IMG/VR virus record: IMGVR_UViG_2877962823_000010
DNA length: 64,000 bases
Strand: one strand, 5' to 3'
From: a virus
Lineage: Duplodnaviria; Heunggongvirae; Uroviricota; Caudoviricetes
The notes under the pieces are model-generated. The model was not told where the DNA came from. It was given only the letters and a program-made list of their open reading frames with translations, and did no database searches. Of the stretch, positions 41,526-51,455 are shown piece by piece (the first letter of the stretch is position 1; each line of letters opens with the position of its first letter). A program made the translations under genes and the position numbers.

Positions 41526-41968
41526 GCAGCCCTACCTTTTCGTTGTGACCATTCATACTCTCGCCGGGAGTCATCACTCCACCGCACGTTGCGCTCTGAG
41601 CCGAACCAGAACATGATTTCGATAAGCTCAGTCATGCTGGCCTTCCGCATTTTGCTGGTACGCACGCCAAGCATGACAACGCCACCGTCGATACCAGGCA
41701 CACTTCGTTGCTCCAGTTTTTTGGTCTTAAGCCACAGGGCAGTGAACAGGTCTTTCCAGTCTTCCGGCGCCAGCCGTTGACCATGCCATAGCACCTGACG
41801 CGAAACATCGTTCAGCATCGGCCACATACGGTCATTCTGCGCTTTGCTGCGCTTGGGTTCTTTAACGTGGACTTCGTGGGGTGACTTGTCGTCGATGGGT
41901 AGTGAGAGAATGGCGTCTATGGCGTTATTTCTGATTGCTTCGTTGCGAAGCAGAAAGGTTTGCTTCAT
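41522..41968 (-). CDS. ninB: NinB recombination protein
   Basis: Start at MKQTF; NinB-like motifs. Confidence 0.7.
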   Translation of the reverse strand: MKQTFLLRNEAIRNNAIDAILSLPIDDKSPHEVHVKEPKRSKAQNDRMWPMLNDVSRQVLWHGQRLAPEDWKDLFTALWLKTKKLEQRSVPGIDGGVVMLGVRTSKMRKASMTELIEIMFWFGSERNVRWSDDSRREYEWSQRKGRAA

Positions 41969-42868: not shown

Positions 42869-43138
42869 TCATTGCTTCATCTCCCTTTCCATTTCATCAA
42901 TGTCAACGTCATCAGGAAGATGGGAGCAATACGCCGCTATACCATGATGATTTATCTCATACCCTTTAAACGTTACCATCTGGCGCGTAATCTCAATTTC
43001 GTTCAGGAATCCGCCATCGCATAACTGCCTGGCTATTTTCGATTTGGTCTGGATTATTGGTAGTGCCTGTTCTTTCAAAGCGTATGATATTTGTGCATCC
43101 CATGCCTTTTCGAGAATGGCTAATTGTTTTTTATTCAT
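42869..43138 (-). CDS. Hypothetical protein
   Basis: 89-aa ORF coupled to helicase stop. Confidence 0.4.
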   Translation of the reverse strand: MNKKQLAILEKAWDAQISYALKEQALPIIQTKSKIARQLCDGGFLNEIEITRQMVTFKGYEINHHGIAAYCSHLPDDVDIDEMEREMKQ

Positions 43139-44574
43139 CAGAATCCTCCTTTCTTCTTGGACTGCGGTTCCTCGCGTTCACGTCGGCGCATTTCAGCAGA
43201 CTGTTGGTCTGTGTCATAAATAGCGCCATTTGCCTGAATGCAATACACCGTGCCGGTATTGCCATGACGATTGAGACGAAGGATTAGTTCGGTTTCACCA
43301 GGTGGAACACTGTCATCAAAAGCACCTTCACGATGGATCCCCACCCAATAATCGCAATCCTGTTCAATCTGCCCTGTATCTCGTGAGTCACTTGGTAGTG
43401 GGCGTTTATTGGTTCGGCTTTCCAGTGCGCGGTTAAGCTGCGTCAGAAGCACAACAACGCAATCAAGCTCTTTGGCAAGGTTCTTCAGTCCTTTGGTGAT
43501 CATGCCGTAAGCAAGGTCGTTGCGATCGGCCTTCTCAGCGGTCATTAGTGTCAGGTAATCGACCAGAATCATGCCAACGCATCCTTTTTCTCGTTTGATT
43601 CGACGGCTTTCGCTGACGATTTGAGCCAGAGATAATCCCGGCGTGTCGTCGATGTAAAGCAGGTCGATTTCACTCAAGCGATTAGCTGTTTCGATCGCCC
43701 TGTTGAAGTCACCATCGTAATCACCCTGATAGCCGTCATCGGCGTCATTTGTCGCCGGAAGGTAAAAAATATTCGGGTTAACACCTGACTTCTGTCCTAC
43801 CAGTTTTTCCAGTATCTGATCACCTGGCATTTCAAGGCTGAACATCAGAGCGGGCTTTTTCTCATGCACTGCGCAATTGATTGCCATCTGGCTGTATAGC
43901 GTCGTTTTCCCCATCTTAGGGCGAGCGCCAATGACAAACAGAGAGCCTTTCACCAGACCTTTCGGTGACAGCATCCTGTCCAGCGATGGGATCCCTGTGC
44001 TCATTCCTCGTTGTTCGCCTGACGGGTCAAATCGCTTCTCAAGGTCGCTAACCCAGTCTTCCATGACCTCGCCAAATGAGCGAAGGCCGCGACGCGATCC
44101 GGTTTTTGCATGGTCTGTCAGTTGCGTGAAAATCGCCTGAATAGCTTCGTACTTCTGCGTTGCAGTCATTCCGTTGCGGGAATAGAGCAATTCCGTCGCT
44201 TCAGTCATGCGGTTGATGGCGTAGCGTTCCATTGCGGTTTCACGAACCTGCATTGCATAGGCAACGATGTTTGCTGCGCTTGGCGTGTTCTTTGCGATCT
44301 CAGCGATATAAGCAAAACCGCCAACAGACGCCGTTAACGATTTACGCTCCAGTTCATCGAAAAGCGTCAGGCCATCTACTGGCTTTTGCTCCCGGTGCAT
44401 TCTGGTTATTTCTTCGAAAATGATTTTGTGTGGTCGGCTGTAAAATGAATCAGGCTTCAGCATCGCCAGAACTTTCTGGACGCGCTCACTGCTGTCATCA
44501 TCCAGAAGCAATCCACCAATCACCGCCTGCTCTGCCTCGATGCTATGGGGCGGCGCATAAAAATTATCGGTCAT
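43138..44574 (-). CDS. Replicative DNA helicase, DnaB family
   Basis: Walker A GARPKMGKT and DnaB N-terminal domain. Confidence 0.85.
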   Translation of the reverse strand: MTDNFYAPPHSIEAEQAVIGGLLLDDDSSERVQKVLAMLKPDSFYSRPHKIIFEEITRMHREQKPVDGLTLFDELERKSLTASVGGFAYIAEIAKNTPSAANIVAYAMQVRETAMERYAINRMTEATELLYSRNGMTATQKYEAIQAIFTQLTDHAKTGSRRGLRSFGEVMEDWVSDLEKRFDPSGEQRGMSTGIPSLDRMLSPKGLVKGSLFVIGARPKMGKTTLYSQMAINCAVHEKKPALMFSLEMPGDQILEKLVGQKSGVNPNIFYLPATNDADDGYQGDYDGDFNRAIETANRLSEIDLLYIDDTPGLSLAQIVSESRRIKREKGCVGMILVDYLTLMTAEKADRNDLAYGMITKGLKNLAKELDCVVVLLTQLNRALESRTNKRPLPSDSRDTGQIEQDCDYWVGIHREGAFDDSVPPGETELILRLNRHGNTGTVYCIQANGAIYDTDQQSAEMRRREREEPQSKKKGGF

Positions 44575-45463
44575 CGTGTTCACCCTCACGAACTTTCAGG
44601 TAGGTATTATCGTTAAGCAGGAAATCAAATCCCTTTTTGTGCCAGACGGTTCCGCGCTGATGGTTTGGGCGCTCTTCGAACATCCATCGGCAATTTTCGC
44701 CTACGTAGCTCAAATAATTTCTCCAGTCCTGCATCGTGAACCCATGCCCGTCAAGCTGGCGGGTTATCACTCCGGCTTTGCGCCAGAACGTTCGGATCTG
44801 GTTTTTACGCTTGTCATTCAGTGCGCGGATTTTTGGCGCTTCAGGAAGGATTTCGTGGTAAGCATCGACAACATCCTGACAGCTAACGGAAGGTTTTTTC
44901 TTGTCAGACTTTTTGTCTGCTGTGGCACTCTCTAATACGTCAGTATTAGAGATAATATTATTATATTCTTTATCTGTGGTAATTTGCTGGTAATCTGCTG
45001 GTACAGTATTGCTTGCAGGCATTGGTATTGCTGGCTTTGAGGTGGTAATTTGCTGGTAATCTGCTGGTACAAAATTTGACTGATAATCGTCATATTTCTC
45101 TACCGAGAAAACTGAGAATTTACCGTGTGAAACCCAGTCAATCATGCCGAGTTTTTTGAACTTTCTAAGCAGGTACTGAACGCGATCTGGTTTGAGTCCT
45201 GTTTCAAACGCCAGAGAGTTTCTACCGCCAAGTAGCTTCCCTCTGCCTACCAGAATTTCTCCTGCGTCAGTCATTACATACTCAGGCGTATGCTTTGCTT
45301 TGAGGATTAAGTGAACCCACAGATGCGCAGCTTCTGCGTCCTTGTAAAACGGCACATCCATAATTTTACGGTGCAGCAAGGCATACCCCTTACCGCTGCT
45401 TTGATGCGGTTGTTGTAGCCTTCTTGCCTCTCTGGCTTCGGCTAGATTAGATATGTTACTCAT
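44564..45463 (-). CDS. Replication initiation protein (lambda O-like)
   Basis: 299 aa; internal duplicated [10 protein letters not shown] linker coinciding with DNA iterons. Confidence 0.6.
44935..45075. repeat. Candidate origin of replication: iterons plus AT-rich tract
   Basis: ggtaatttgctggtaatctgctggtaca occurs twice (44978, 45044) with further tgctgg motifs; AT-rich 44940-44975. Confidence 0.5.
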
Positions 45464-45602
45464 GACCTTTCTCCTTCTGCATCAGCTTCACTTTTTCCAA
45501 CTCAGCCCGGAATCGACCAGGCTGCTTGAAGCTGGACAGGAAGCGATCACGTAGTATGTGTTTGTGAATTTTGTCCTGGTAAGGACTGAGTTGTTTTGTC
45601 AT
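45456..45602 (-). CDS. Small hypothetical protein (48 aa)
   Basis: Manually found ORF between cII and O-like gene. Confidence 0.25.
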
Positions 45603-45634
45603 AATTACTCCTGTGGATTGATCCAGTAATTCCC

Positions 45635-45931
45635 TCAGAATTGCATATCAATTTGCTTAAAATCCTCGGTGGCGGCCGGGGATTTTTTCTTTGTGATTTC
45701 ATCAAGCGCATACTTAAAAGCCCTGCTAATCGGACTGATGTCTGATGCCATTCCGAAAGCACACAAGACCGAAGCAATAAATCTCCAGTCCGTTCTGCTT
45801 ATCTTCGATTCATGACAGCCAATCATCTTTGCCAGACCGCGCTGGGTAAGCGTTGACAGGTTGATGAGTAAATCAGTTTCAGCGCGATCAATTTCTCGCT
45901 GTGATAGTTTGCTGTAACTTGTTTGTTCCAT
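45635..45931 (-). CDS. cII: CII-like transcriptional activator
   Basis: C-terminus [17 protein letters not shown] resembles lambda CII KKRPAATERSEQIQMEF; HTH in the middle. Confidence 0.65.
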
Positions 45932-46017
45932 TTCTTAAGATTTCCAATAGTGAATAGCTAGTTGAAAGGTATGCGTGGAAACGCATATGGCCTTAGTTGG
46001 TCAGATATCTTGGGACT

Positions 46018-46062
46018 CGCTTTTCAGCGACGTAGGACGAATGTCCGTTGTTACAAAGAGCG
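46018..46062 (-). promoter_or_regulatory. nutR candidate (boxA cgctctttgtaa; boxB cgctgaaaagcg)
   Basis: Minus-strand boxA-like motif and GAAAA-loop hairpin just downstream of cro. Confidence 0.4.
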
Positions 46063-46072
46063 GCTCCGCTTA

Positions 46073-46288
46073 TTAAGCGGCTTTGTGCTCCGGCGGGAAC
46101 ACGTCATCAAGACTTACTTTTGCGCCTAACTTGTTTAGACACGCAACAAGAGCACGGCATGTTTTAAGGTCTGGGAAGCGACGACCAGATTCCCAATGTC
46201 CGATAGCTCCCTGTGTGCATCCAACTGCCTTAGCAAGTGTTGTTTGAGAGATATTCAGTGACTCTCGATATTTTCGTAGGTTGCTCAT
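46073..46288 (-). CDS. cro: Cro-like HTH repressor
   Basis: 71 aa from MSNLRKY with ggaggg SD; divergent from cI. Confidence 0.7.
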   Translation of the reverse strand: MSNLRKYRESLNISQTTLAKAVGCTQGAIGHWESGRRFPDLKTCRALVACLNKLGAKVSLDDVFPPEHKAA

Positions 46289-46399
46289 ATGCCCTCCATA
46301 GTAACCACGAATAAAAAAATACAATATGTACTTCTCAAATACAAGTAAAAATACACATTGTGCATGGATGGTTCCAGTACAGAGCGTAATAATAAGGAC
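46289..46399. promoter_or_regulatory. Divergent PR/PRM promoter-operator region
   Basis: AT-rich intergenic region; agtacatat motif shared with pL region. Confidence 0.45.
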
Positions 46400-47059
46400 A
46401 TGAAAATGAAATGGTATGAACTGGCTAGATCCAGAATGAAAGAGCTCGGCATAACTCAAGAGAAGTTAGCCGAAGAGCTAGGTATGACGCAGGGTGGAAT
46501 TGGACACTGGTTGCGCGGATCTCGTCATCCATCTCTTAGTGATATTGGTGTGGTGTTTAAATACCTTGGTATTGATAACATATCATTCAACCACGACGGG
46601 ACATTTTCACCTGTTGGCGAATACTCATCGGCCCCAGTTAAAAAACAATATGAGTACCCTGTTTTTTCTCATGTTCAGGCTGGGATGTTCTCTCCAGAAC
46701 TCAGAACCTTTACCAAAGGTGATGCGGAGAGATTGGTAAGCACAACCAAAAAAGCCAGTGACTCTGCATTCTGGCTTGAGGTTGAAGGTAACTCAATGAC
46801 CGCACCAACAGGTTCCAAACCTAGTTTTCCTGACGGGATGTTAATTCTGGTTGACCCTGAGCAAGCTGTTGAGCCCGGCGATTTCTGCATAGCCAGACTT
46901 GGTGGTGATGAATTTACCTTCAAGAAACTGATCAGGGATAGCGGTCAGGTGTTTCTACAACCACTAAACCCGCAATATCCAATGATCCCATGCAATGAGA
47001 GTTGTTCCGTTGTGGGGAAAGTTATCGCCAGCCAATGGCCTGAAGAGACGTTTGGGTAA
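46400..47059 (+). CDS. cI: CI repressor (lambda-type S24 C-terminal domain, distinct N-terminal HTH)
   Basis: C-terminal ~130 aa match lambda CI ([51 protein letters not shown]...); N-terminal domain differs. Confidence 0.9.
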
Positions 47060-47560
47060 AGAGGATAGATGGAGTTTAATGGCCATGAGTATCAAGCGGT
47101 CAAAAAGAAGTTCATCTATTCATTGAAAGCATAAGGCCATCTGAGTATATCCGTAATGATCTGGATATTGTCTATAACATCAATGACCGGACGATAGATA
47201 TCGGTGAGCAGCGTCCTGTATGGCAGGGTGAGGCAGGTGAAAAAACGTCCTGCCATCAACAAGAATCAAGTGCATCCGCTCTCTGGACAGATGGAAAATT
47301 TATTGGATGCAAAAAGATATGAAATAACACCTGTATAGCACGGAGCTTTCTCTGACCGATGCACTTGAAGTTGTTAGGGCTGACCCAGCCTGCTGTTTCT
47401 TTAGGTAAGAGAAAAGAGATTTAGGAGATGAAAGGTCGCAGAGGTGCGGCCTTTTTTATTGAGAGTGGATCTTGAACGGAAATTCTCAAGACTTGAGTCT
47501 TGCATGCAAATCAATTCCTGGATAAACTCGATCTGAGTCAATAACTTAGAGAGAGAGCAA

Positions 47561-50293: not shown

Positions 50294-50664
50294 CCCCCTT
50301 TCCTGTTTTCCTAATCAGCCCGGCATTTCGCGGGCGATATTTTCACAGCTATTTCAGGAGTTCAGCCATGAACGCTTATTACATTCAGGATCGTCTTGAG
50401 GCTCAGAGCTGGACGCGTCACTACCAGCAGATCGCCCGTGAAGAGAAAGAGGCAGAACTGGCAGACGACATGGGAAAAGGTCTGCCCCAGCACCTGTTTG
50501 AATCACTCTGCATCGATCATTTGCAACGCCACGGGGCCAGCAAAAAAGCCATTACCCGTGCGTTTGATGACGATGTTGAGTTTCAGGAGCGCATGGCAGA
50601 ACACATCCGGTACATGGTTGAAACCATTGCTCACCACCAGGTTGATATTGATTCAGAGGTATAA
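50248..50664 (+). CDS. gam: Gam RecBCD inhibitor
   Basis: 138 aa essentially lambda Gam ([12 protein letters not shown]...[15 protein letters not shown]...). Confidence 0.9.
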
Positions 50665-50669
50665 AGCGG

Positions 50670-51455
50670 ATGAGTACAGCACTCGCAACGCTGGCAGGGA
50701 AGCTGGCTGAACGTGTCGGCATGGATTCTGTCGACCCACAGGAACTGATCACCACTCTTCGCCAGACGGCATTTAAAGGTGATGCCAGCGATGCGCAGTT
50801 CATCGCATTGTTGATCGTCGCCAACCAGTACGGCCTTAATCCGTGGACGAAAGAAATTTACGCCTTCCCTGATAAGCAGAACGGCATCGTTCCGGTGGTG
50901 GGCGTTGATGGCTGGTCCCGCATCATCAATGAAAACCAGCAGTTTGATGGCATGGACTTTGAGCAGGACAATGAATCCTGTACATGCCGGATTTACCGCA
51001 AAGACCGTAATCATCCGATCTGCGTTACCGAGTGGATGGATGAATGCCGCCGCGAACCATTCAAAACCCGCGAAGGCAGAGAAATCACCGGCCCGTGGCA
51101 GTCGCATCCCAAACGGATGTTACGGCATAAAGCCATGATTCAGTGTGCCCGTCTGGCCTTCGGATTTGCTGGTATCTATGACAAGGATGAAGCCGAGCGC
51201 ATTGTCGAAAATACTGCATACACTGCAGAACGCCAGCCGGAACGCGACATCACTCCGGTTAACGATGAAACCATGCAGGAGATTAACACTCTGCTGATCG
51301 CCCTGGATAAAACATGGGATGACGACTTATTGCCGCTCTGTTCCCAGATATTTCGCCGCGACATTCGCGCATCGTCAGAACTGACACAGGCCGAAGCAGT
51401 GAAAGTTCTTGGATTCCTGAAACAGAAAGCCTCTGAGCAGAAGGTGGCTGCATGA
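50670..51455 (+). CDS. bet: Bet single-strand annealing protein (Red beta)
   Basis: 261 aa lambda Bet-like. Confidence 0.9.

What the first reader, a model, noticed from the sequence alone, without database searches (positions are those of the whole stretch)
44935..45075. Iterons plus AT-rich tract inside the O-like gene: candidate origin
A 28-bp unit occurs twice with additional tgctgg motifs and an adjacent AT-rich tract. It lies in the linker of the initiator, as with lambda ori inside O.
Basis: partly seen in the sequence, partly recalled or inferred. Interest (0 to 1): 0.4.

Follow-up and report, generated by a model that had tools for sequence, protein, structure and literature searches.

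The report
Predicted replication origin inside phage initiator gene
The repeats are real and are almost certainly the replication origin of this Shiga-toxin phage, sitting inside its own initiator gene, but public records of the same phage have labelled exactly these repeats as origin iterons for over twenty years.

Summary
Observation confirmed. An exact 30-bp unit occurs at 44976-45005 and 45042-45071. Beside it lie the most AT-rich 30 bp of the gene (10% GC) and a perfect 10-bp palindrome.

The window is 100% identical over this gene to VT2-Sakai and the Stx1-converting phage. GenBank AP000422 already annotates these two repeats as 'ori iteron 1/2', bound by O. HK620, Sf6 and phage L carry equivalent origin annotations, and a 2020 phage L paper describes six 11-bp repeats.

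What the comparison adds:
- The real unit is 11 bp (TACCAGCARAT on the gene strand), in two triads exactly 66 bp apart.
- The units are read in three codon phases.
- They are conserved at synonymous sites (95% against 60%).
- 119 of 123 distinct homologous genes keep the layout, with at least eight different iteron sequences.
- Iteron type tracks the N-terminal domain, which is predicted to be a winged helix. The C-terminal domain tracks the helicase or loader partner.
- The palindrome keeps strict Watson-Crick pairing through 24 different stems.

The initiator is HK022 O / phage L gp18 type. Its N-domain does not match Pfam Phage_rep_O, so it works like lambda ori without being a member of that family. 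I found no binding or origin-mapping experiment for this family.

Verdict: already known as a prediction; low interest.

The parts
44564..45463 (-). Replication initiator gene (299 aa), HK022 O / phage L gp18 type. The origin lies inside it.
   Evidence: ORF listed. phrog_345 'replication initiation O-like', E 7e-88. 100% DNA identity to the gene annotated 'O protein' in VT2-Sakai and the Stx1-converting phage. About 99% protein identity to HK022 O.
45080..45463 (-). Part coding the N-terminal domain (aa 1-128): predicted winged helix-turn-helix and presumed iteron-binding module.
   Evidence: AlphaFold2 model, mean pLDDT 81.7, with helices 81-88 and 92-104 followed by a beta hairpin 108-121. 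All top Foldseek PDB hits are winged-helix DNA binders, at weak E-values of 1e-3 to 1e-2. No PF04492 match. Its sequence identity tracks iteron type, Spearman -0.74.
45042..45071 (-). Iteron triad 1 (gene-proximal). Two full 11-bp units sit at 45059-45069 and 45048-45058 (TACCAGCAGAT and TACCAGCAAAT on the gene strand), with a half unit TACCAC at 45042-45047.
   Evidence: Annotated 'ori iteron 1' in AP000422.
45006..45041 (-). Spacer between the triads. Its length is kept (triads always 66 bp apart) but its sequence is free.
   Evidence: 66-bp spacing in 119 of 123 distinct homologous genes. Spacer nucleotide identity is 62%, against 95-97% for the triads, among 11 diverged genes with the same iteron.
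44976..45005 (-). Iteron triad 2. Two full 11-bp units sit at 44993-45003 and 44982-44992, with a half unit TACCAC at 44976-44981.
   Evidence: Annotated 'ori iteron 2' in AP000422.
44953..44975 (.). AT-rich tract, the presumed DNA unwinding element. It is also the mosaic junction between the N-module and the C-module.
   Evidence: The 30-bp window 44944-44973 is 10% GC, in the lowest 0.02% of the 64-kb window. Mean GC of the homologous stretch across the family is 20%. Identity to HK75 and Sf6 jumps from about 47% to 97-100% at gene nt 495-510.
44929..44952 (.). Perfect palindrome TCTCTAATAC-TGAC-GTATTAGAGA (gene strand): 10-bp arms and a 4-nt loop.
   Evidence: I7. Folded as single-stranded DNA, the region gives -10.1 kcal/mol, z = -6.3. 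118 of 119 relatives have a perfect 9-10-bp stem with loop T[AG]A[CA]. Across 24 distinct sequences, 96.7% of cells pair against 59.6% in shuffles. All 10 pairs change on both sides and there is no wobble in the inner nine pairs.
44567..44941 (-). Part coding the C-terminal domain (about aa 175-299): presumed helicase-recruiting module.
   Evidence: 25% identity to the P22 gp18 C-terminal part, E 1e-4. In the 114 of 119 loci where the downstream gene could be read, the C-domain class goes with the partner: 107 window-type with DnaB-type helicase, 5 lambda-O-type with lambda P, 2 P22-type with DnaB-type helicase.
43138..44589 (-). Phage-encoded DnaB-family replicative helicase ('P' of HK022 / VT2-Sakai). 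It overlaps the end of the initiator gene.
   Evidence: TIGR03600 phage_DnaB, 585.9 bits against a cut-off of 498.65. Pfam DnaB and DnaB_C.

Best explanation
This is the replication origin of an HK022 / VT2-Sakai-type lambdoid replicon, embedded in the linker-coding part of its own initiator gene.

Anatomy, in the direction of the gene:
- two triads of an 11-bp iteron (TACCAGCARAT), with starts 66 bp apart, which is six 11-bp periods, so all sites lie on roughly one face of the helix;
- a tract of about 25-30 bp of 10-20% GC;
- a 10-bp-arm palindrome.

Proposed mechanism (inferred, not shown):
1. The N-terminal winged-helix domain of the initiator binds the iterons and builds a nucleoprotein complex.
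2. This destabilises the adjacent AT-rich tract.
3. The C-terminal domain brings in the phage's own DnaB-type helicase, encoded immediately downstream. No lambda-P-type loader or host DnaB hijack is then needed, as known for P22 gene 12.
4. The palindrome probably acts as DNA: a hairpin or cruciform once the region is unwound, or a symmetric site.

Shown here: the sequence anatomy, DNA-level selection on the iterons, family-wide conservation of the layout, co-segregation of iteron type with the N-domain, co-segregation of the C-domain with the partner protein, and complementarity-preserving evolution of the palindrome.
For: - Identity and prior annotation: the gene is 100% identical to VT2-Sakai and the Stx1-converting phage. 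AP000422 annotates window 44976-45005 and 45042-45071 as 'ori iteron 2/1', bound by O. HK620, phage L and Sf6 have rep_origin features at the homologous position. The phage L paper describes six 11-bp repeats as the likely origin (PMC8022706).
- The constraint is on DNA, not on peptide: the 11-bp units start in codon phases 1, 3 and 2. Among 11 diverged genes sharing this iteron, the triads are 95-97% identical, against 80% for N-domain DNA and 62% for the spacer. Third-codon-position identity is 95% in the triads, against 60% and 59%.
- Family-wide layout: 119 of 123 distinct complete homologous genes, at 33-100% protein identity, have two triads 66 bp apart followed by an AT tract and a palindrome. 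They use at least eight different iteron cores.
- Specificity module: iteron-core distance correlates with N-domain identity (Spearman -0.74) much more than with C-domain identity (-0.22). One pair has a 100% identical C-domain, a 47% identical N-domain and different iterons.
- The N-domain model has a winged helix-turn-helix, and its best PDB matches are winged-helix DNA binders.
- Partner module: C-domain class matches the downstream gene in all 114 readable loci.
- The AT tract is extreme for this window.
- Palindrome covariation is strong.
- Lambda and P22 origins show the same order of iterons, AT tract and palindrome.
- The replicon is functional in vivo: the Sp5 prophage amplifies and transfers after mitomycin C (PMC2669165).
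Against: - I found no experiment for this family that shows O binding to these repeats or maps initiation here. All database 'ori' labels are by analogy with lambda.
- Co-segregation of iterons with the N-domain is also expected from simple physical linkage, because they are adjacent.
- The Mantel and shuffle controls do not remove shared ancestry.
- The fold matches are weak (E 1e-3 to 1e-2, TM about 0.4).
- In this phage the third unit of each triad is only a half site (TACCAC).
- One relative has a single triad and another has three (L100 and L098), so the number needed is unknown.
Confidence: 0.85

Rival explanations
1. The repeats are initiator-binding sites used mainly for something other than initiation, such as autoregulation of O and P expression or copy control by pairing of sites. 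The true start of replication would then lie elsewhere.
For: The sites lie inside the transcribed initiator gene, so bound protein could block transcription from pR. Iterons of plasmid replicons are known to serve both initiation and control (general knowledge). Isolated exact 11-mers occur elsewhere in the phage at 33074, 50422 and 51164, against 0.06 expected, which hints at binding outside an origin.
Against: The conserved downstream AT tract and palindrome reproduce the order of elements seen in the lambda and P22 origins. No other iteron cluster exists in the 64-kb window.
Confidence: 0.07
2. The repeat is only a 66-bp in-frame duplication of linker coding sequence (peptide [10 protein letters not shown] twice), with no function as DNA.
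For: The two copies encode the same decapeptide. Copy number varies from one to three among close relatives (L100 and L098), as tandem duplications do.
Against: The 11-bp period inside each copy is read in three codon phases, so it is not a peptide period. Synonymous sites in the triads are 95% conserved, against 60% in flanking coding DNA, while the spacer between them diverges to 62%. Every family member keeps two triads, but with its own sequence.
Confidence: 0.03
3. The palindrome alone is an intrinsic terminator or RNA hairpin for transcripts antisense to the initiator gene, and is not part of the origin.
For: The consensus scan flags 44929-44952 on the + strand as terminator-like, with the tail TAATATTATT. 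The phage L record annotates predicted terminators there.
Against: Only 3 of the 10 stem pairs are G-C and the T tail is poor. No promoter-like site was found in 44500-45700 to feed it. Across 24 distinct stems there is no G-U pair in the inner nine positions, which is unusual for an RNA helix and expected for a DNA palindrome. It sits at a fixed 16-19 nt from triad 2.
Confidence: 0.1

Closest known systems
Annotated origins of the same replicon type: VT2-Sakai 'ori iteron 1/2' (AP000422), HK620 rep_origin (AF335538), HK022 O gene
   Same: The sequence is identical or about 99% identical. The annotated coordinates map exactly onto window 44976-45005 and 45042-45071.
   Different: Nothing in the sequence differs. 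Those records mark two 30-bp iterons. The family comparison here shows 11-bp units in two triads, plus the AT tract and the palindrome.
Phage L / ST64T / Sf6 gene 18-type origin: six 11-bp repeats TGTCCAACGGA (PMC8022706; MW013503, NC_005344)
   Same: Same protein family (about 65% identity). Same layout of two triads 66 bp apart, AT tract and palindrome, and a nearly identical C-terminal domain and helicase type.
   Different: The iteron sequence differs (TGTCCAACGG against TACCAGCARAT) and the N-terminal domain has diverged (about 47-50% identity), which implies a different origin specificity.
Bacteriophage lambda ori inside gene O
   Same: The origin lies inside the initiator gene between the parts coding its two domains. 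The order of elements is iterons, then AT-rich tract, then palindrome. The initiator is built from an N-terminal origin-binding domain and a C-terminal partner-binding domain. Some relatives (Eho59 and others) even carry the lambda-O C-domain with a lambda P gene.
   Different: Lambda has four iterons of about 18-19 bp with internal dyad symmetry. Here there are six 11-bp direct units with no dyad. The N-domain does not match PF04492 and shows no significant profile similarity. The partner is a DnaB-type helicase rather than lambda P.
Phage P22 ori inside gene 18
   Same: It lies inside the initiator gene with iterons, AT tract and palindrome. The partner is a phage DnaB-type helicase (gene 12), and the C-terminal domain is distantly similar (25% identity, E 1e-4).
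   Different: The P22 gp18 N-domain is PF04492, the lambda-O type. Its repeats are about 20 bp with a CGGTAAAAC core (PMC8022706).
Iteron origins of plasmids (pSC101, R6K, RK2, P1) with winged-helix Rep proteins
   Same: Direct repeats bound by a winged-helix initiator lie next to an AT-rich unwinding element (general knowledge; fold evidence).
   Different: Plasmid iterons are 17-22 bp and lie outside the rep gene. Host DnaA and DnaB are usually needed. No homology was shown here.

Membership tests
HK022 O / VT2-Sakai / phage L gp18-type intragenic origin | Initiator protein belongs to the HK022 O / L gp18 family | tested here: met
   About 99% protein identity to HK022 O and 65% to phage L gp18. 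phrog_345, E 7e-88.
HK022 O / VT2-Sakai / phage L gp18-type intragenic origin | Six 11-bp direct repeats in two triads 66 bp apart, just after the KYDD[YF]Q motif of the gene | tested here: met
   In this phage the third unit of each triad is a half site (TACCAC).
HK022 O / VT2-Sakai / phage L gp18-type intragenic origin | AT-rich tract and palindrome immediately downstream of the second triad | tested here: met
   10% GC over 30 bp. Perfect 10-bp arms. Found in 118 of 119 relatives.
HK022 O / VT2-Sakai / phage L gp18-type intragenic origin | Initiator binds the repeats and replication starts here | not testable with these tools
   I found no experiment for any member of the family. The whole Sp5 replicon is active in vivo.
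Lambdoid 'origin inside the initiator gene' architecture (functional class) | Iterons, then AT-rich tract, then palindrome, between the N- and C-domain coding parts and in the direction of the gene | tested here: met
   The window anatomy compared with lambda and P22.
Lambda O family proper (Pfam Phage_rep_O, PF04492, with its iterons) | N-terminal domain matches PF04492 | tested here: not met
   No hit at E up to 1 for the window N-domain. Lambda O scores 123 bits and P22 gp18 scores 130 bits. hhalign probability is 0.9%.
Lambda O family proper (Pfam Phage_rep_O, PF04492, with its iterons) | Iterons of about 18-19 bp with internal dyad symmetry, four or more copies | tested here: not met
   The units are 11 bp, direct, and not self-complementary. 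Lambda iterons are shown.
Lambda O family proper (Pfam Phage_rep_O, PF04492, with its iterons) | C-terminal domain paired with a lambda P-type helicase loader | tested here: not met
   The downstream gene is a DnaB-family helicase (TIGR03600). The C-domain is P22 gp18-like. Only 5 distant relatives carry the lambda-type pair.

The most novel reading that the evidence does not exclude
The palindrome just beyond the AT tract is an essential, structure-dependent part of this origin class. It would be a DNA hairpin or cruciform whose sequence is free but whose complementarity and T[AG]A[CA] loop are required, for example as the entry or priming signal for the phage helicase. The AT tract between iterons and palindrome would double as the preferred recombination joint, at which origin-specificity modules (N-domain plus iterons) are swapped between helicase modules. 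None of the records or papers I read describes either point for this family.
Probability: 0.35. Interest if true: 0.35.

Novelty: already known. Interest (0 to 1): 0.15.

Why it matters
This is the element from which an Stx2/Stx1-converting phage of E. coli O157:H7 most likely starts copying its genome after induction, and that copying amplifies the toxin genes. Knowing the site and its specificity module is useful for work on Stx phage replication. That work has so far examined biochemically only the lambda-type O proteins of 933W and P27 (PMC7466680). The prediction itself is old and sits in the public annotation. What is still missing is the experiment, not the idea.

Tried and rejected
- Rfam scan of 43000-47500 at E up to 1: no hit, so no known RNA family explains the palindrome or the repeats.
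- Sequence search of the initiator against PDB chains: nothing meaningful.
- Pfam and NCBIfam on the initiator: only a sub-threshold DUF7376 match and no NCBIfam hit.
- Profile comparison of the N-domain with lambda O and P22 gp18 N-domains: not significant. Only the helix-turn-helix stretch aligns. Both profiles are shallow, so distant homology is not excluded.
- The search for homologous proteins on the N-domain returned only 36 hits, mostly fragments at 57-100% identity. They were used only to support the structure model.
- A first automatic repeat finder (9-mers with one mismatch) picked chance words for the window-type genes, because they have only four full units. I replaced it with a lag-66 / lag-11 analysis.
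- Literature searches for binding or mapping experiments on HK022 / VT2-Sakai-type origins found none.
- The Oberto 1994 (HK022) and Sato 2003 (Stx1 phage) papers are not held. The original VT2-Sakai papers (Makino 1999, Miyamoto 1999) and the HK620 and Sf6 genome papers were not looked up.
- The spacer copy of TGCTGG at 45029 (an in-phase, 7/11 match) was considered as a seventh iteron. I rejected it because it is not conserved in relatives with the same iteron.
- Promoter scan of 44500-45700: no sigma-70-like site.

Full report
**What the window is.** The region 43.1-47.1 kb is the immunity and replication block of a lambdoid phage. It holds a CI-like repressor (46358-47059, +), cro, cII (45635-45931, -; Pfam Phage_CII), a small orf48/DUF2740 gene (45456-45602, -), a 299-aa initiator gene (44564-45463, -) and a DnaB-family helicase (43138-44589, -; TIGR03600 at 585.9 bits). 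The initiator gene is 100% identical in DNA to VT2-Sakai (AP000422), the Stx1-converting phage (AP005153) and many O157 Stx2 phages. It is about 99% identical in protein to HK022 O and HK620 O.

An exact 30-bp unit, GTGGTAATTTGCTGGTAATCTGCTGGTACA, occurs at 44976-45005 and 45042-45071, 66 bp apart. Each copy is internally an 11-bp tandem array. The full unit ATYTGCTGGTA sits at 44982, 44993, 45048 and 45059. The core 8-mer is 6.7-fold over-represented in the window, and no shuffle out of 100 reached the observed count. The adjacent 30 bp (44944-44973) are 10% GC, which puts them in the lowest 0.02% of the 64-kb window and makes them the lowest in the gene. Just beyond lies a perfect palindrome with 10-bp arms and a 4-nt loop (44929-44952). 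Folded as single-stranded DNA, that region gives z = -6.3 against shuffles.

**It is already annotated.**
- AP000422 carries two misc_binding features, 'ori iteron 1' and 'ori iteron 2', bound moiety O protein. They map exactly to 45042-45071 and 44976-45005.
- HK620 has a two-piece rep_origin spanning the same bases.
- Sf6 has a 'repeat region reminiscent of the phage lambda origin'.
- Phage L has a 'putative origin of replication'.
[quoted passage not shown] It also states that L gp18 is only about 15% identical to lambda O and 25% to P22 gp18 (PMC8022706).

I found no experiment on binding or origin mapping for this family. The published biochemistry of Stx-phage origins deals with the lambda-type O proteins of 933W and P27 (PMC7466680). 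[quoted passage not shown]

**The repeats are constrained as DNA.** On the gene strand the units are GTACCAGCAGA / TTACCAGCAAA / TTACCAC... They start in codon phases 1, 3 and 2, so the 11-bp period cannot come from a peptide period. The peptide [10 protein letters not shown] repeats only because the whole 33-bp triad does. I compared 11 diverged genes that share this iteron (56-100% protein identity to the window):

| Segment | Nucleotide identity | Third-codon-position identity |
|---|---|---|
| Triads | 95.5-97.4% | 95% |
| N-domain coding DNA | 79.8% | 60% |
| Spacer between triads | 61.8% | 59% |

**The layout is a family trait.** I fetched 51 genome loci and 80 viral-contig loci, plus phage records.
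- 119 of 123 distinct complete genes, down to 33% protein identity, have two triads exactly 66 bp apart right after the conserved KYDD[YF]Q motif.
- The cores differ between lineages: TACCAGCA, TACCAACA, TGTCCAACG, TGTCCAGCC, GTGCCAACA, AATCCAAAG, GGCCAACG and TGTCCGxAG.
- The stretch between triad 2 and the palindrome averages 20% GC.
- Close relatives exist with three triads (L098, 966-bp gene) and with one (L100, 834-bp gene).
- More distant homologues from Prevotella, Bacteroidia and Elusimicrobiales contigs carry 11-12-bp tandem arrays at the same place.

**Two modules.**
- Iteron-core distance correlates strongly with N-domain identity (Spearman -0.74) and weakly with C-domain identity (-0.22). 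L063 (window type) and HK75 have 100% identical C-domains, 47% identical N-domains and different iterons. The reverse also occurs: the same iteron with a C-domain only 21% identical.
- The C-domain class matches the downstream gene in all 114 of 119 loci where that gene could be read. That is 107 window-type C-domains with a DnaB-type helicase, 5 lambda-O-type with lambda P, and 2 P22-type with a DnaB-type helicase (Eho59).
- Against HK75 and Sf6, identity jumps from about 47% to 97-100% at gene nt 495-510, inside the AT tract.

Linkage alone would also produce the N-domain/iteron association, so this result is consistent with specific recognition but does not prove it.

**The N-domain.** It has no Pfam match, whereas lambda O and P22 gp18 both match Phage_rep_O. 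A profile comparison with those two is not significant; only the helix-turn-helix stretch aligns. An AlphaFold2 model (20 sequences, mean pLDDT 81.7) shows helices 81-88 and 92-104 followed by a beta hairpin. The best Foldseek PDB matches are all winged-helix DNA binders (CodY, ArsR/SmtB, CRP, MarR, TubR), though at weak E-values of 1e-3 to 1e-2. PHROGs place the domain with 'DnaD-like helicase loader' families.

**The palindrome.**
- 118 of 119 genes have a perfect 9-10-bp stem with loop T[AG]A[CA], 16-19 nt (7-22 in a few) after triad 2.
- Across 24 distinct sequences, 96.7% of cells pair, against 59.6% in shuffles and 29-48% when the partner columns are slid.
- All ten pairs show changes on both sides. 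The inner nine pairs contain no G-U pair at all.

Strict Watson-Crick complementarity with free sequence fits a DNA-level structure, either hairpins on both strands or a cruciform. It fits an RNA helix or a fixed protein site less well. The consensus scan does flag it as a weak terminator on the antisense strand, and phage L's annotators did the same. I give that reading about 10%.

**Comparison with the known origins.** Lambda has four iterons of about 18 bp with dyad symmetry, then an AT-rich tract, then an inverted repeat. P22 has four repeats of about 20 bp, an AT tract and a CCCCCT/AGGGGG palindrome. The window has the same order of elements and the same position in the gene. So it works like lambda ori. 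It is not a member of the lambda O / Phage_rep_O family, because three defining features were tested and not met: the N-domain family, the iteron form and the partner. It is a member of the HK022 O / L gp18-type class.

**Verdict.** The reading is well supported by comparison (confidence about 0.85) but not by experiment. Novelty: already known. Interest: low. The only points that I did not find in the records and papers I read are the complementarity-preserving palindrome, the exact 66-bp phasing, and the module joint in the AT tract.

Noticed in passing
window 33074-33084 (-), 50422-50432 (-), 51164-51174 (+); also 41650-41660 (+) with one mismatch: Isolated exact copies of the 11-bp iteron ATYTGCTGGTA lie outside the origin, all inside ORFs, against about 0.06 expected from base composition. 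The 8-mer core occurs 10 times in the window against 1.49 expected. This could be chance, a codon effect, or secondary initiator-binding sites.
   Followed up: partly
L098 (IMGVR_UViG_2645727562_000001) and L100 (IMGVR_UViG_2630968558_000001), initiator genes: These are natural copy-number variants of the 66-bp unit in close relatives (92% protein identity). L098 has three iteron triads (966-bp gene) and L100 has only one (834-bp gene).
   Followed up: partly
window 44953-44975 (gene nt about 495-510): The mosaic junction between the window-type gene and the HK75 / Sf6-type gene falls inside the AT-rich tract. Upstream identity is about 47% and downstream it is 97-100%. The N-domain plus iterons therefore exchange as one block, and the palindrome, C-domain and helicase as another.
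   Followed up: yes
window 45595-45627 and 45659-45686 (+): The 33-bp block conserved at the oop promoter and 5' end in lambdoid phages (PMC3349717) is present exactly, reading on the minus strand. A strong terminator-like hairpin with a T run lies on the + strand inside cII. Together they suggest an OOP-like antisense RNA. Rfam gave no hit.
   Followed up: partly
window 45456-45602 (-): The 48-aa orf48 / DUF2740 gene between cII and the initiator is labelled 'tail protein' by PHROGs (phrog_1913) and by several RefSeq records. Its position in the early right operon makes that label implausible.
   Followed up: no
L011 (Erwinia phage Eho59), L051, L052, L054, L058: These are hybrid initiators. 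They combine an N-domain and 11-bp iteron triads of this family with a lambda-O-type C-terminal domain, followed by a lambda P-type loader gene instead of a DnaB-type helicase.
   Followed up: yes
L059 (Elusimicrobiales MAG), L060 (Bacteroidia MAG), L061 (Prevotella sp.), initiator homologues: Distant homologues of the N-domain (25-32% identity) also carry tandem arrays of 11-12-bp units. In L061, the one checked, they lie just after the N-domain coding part (nine to ten 12-bp units of CAAACAAATGAG type).
   Followed up: no
L033 and L034 (Silvania hatchlandensis, Leclercia MAG): Two family members depart from the 11-bp / 66-bp rule. Their repeats (ATTACCAA core) are spaced 12 bp apart, and the lag-66 signal is absent.
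   Followed up: no
window 44576-44935 (+): A 119-aa ORF antisense to the initiator gene is annotated as a hypothetical protein (ORF b66) in AP005153. It lies wholly inside the initiator gene and is probably not a real gene.
   Followed up: no
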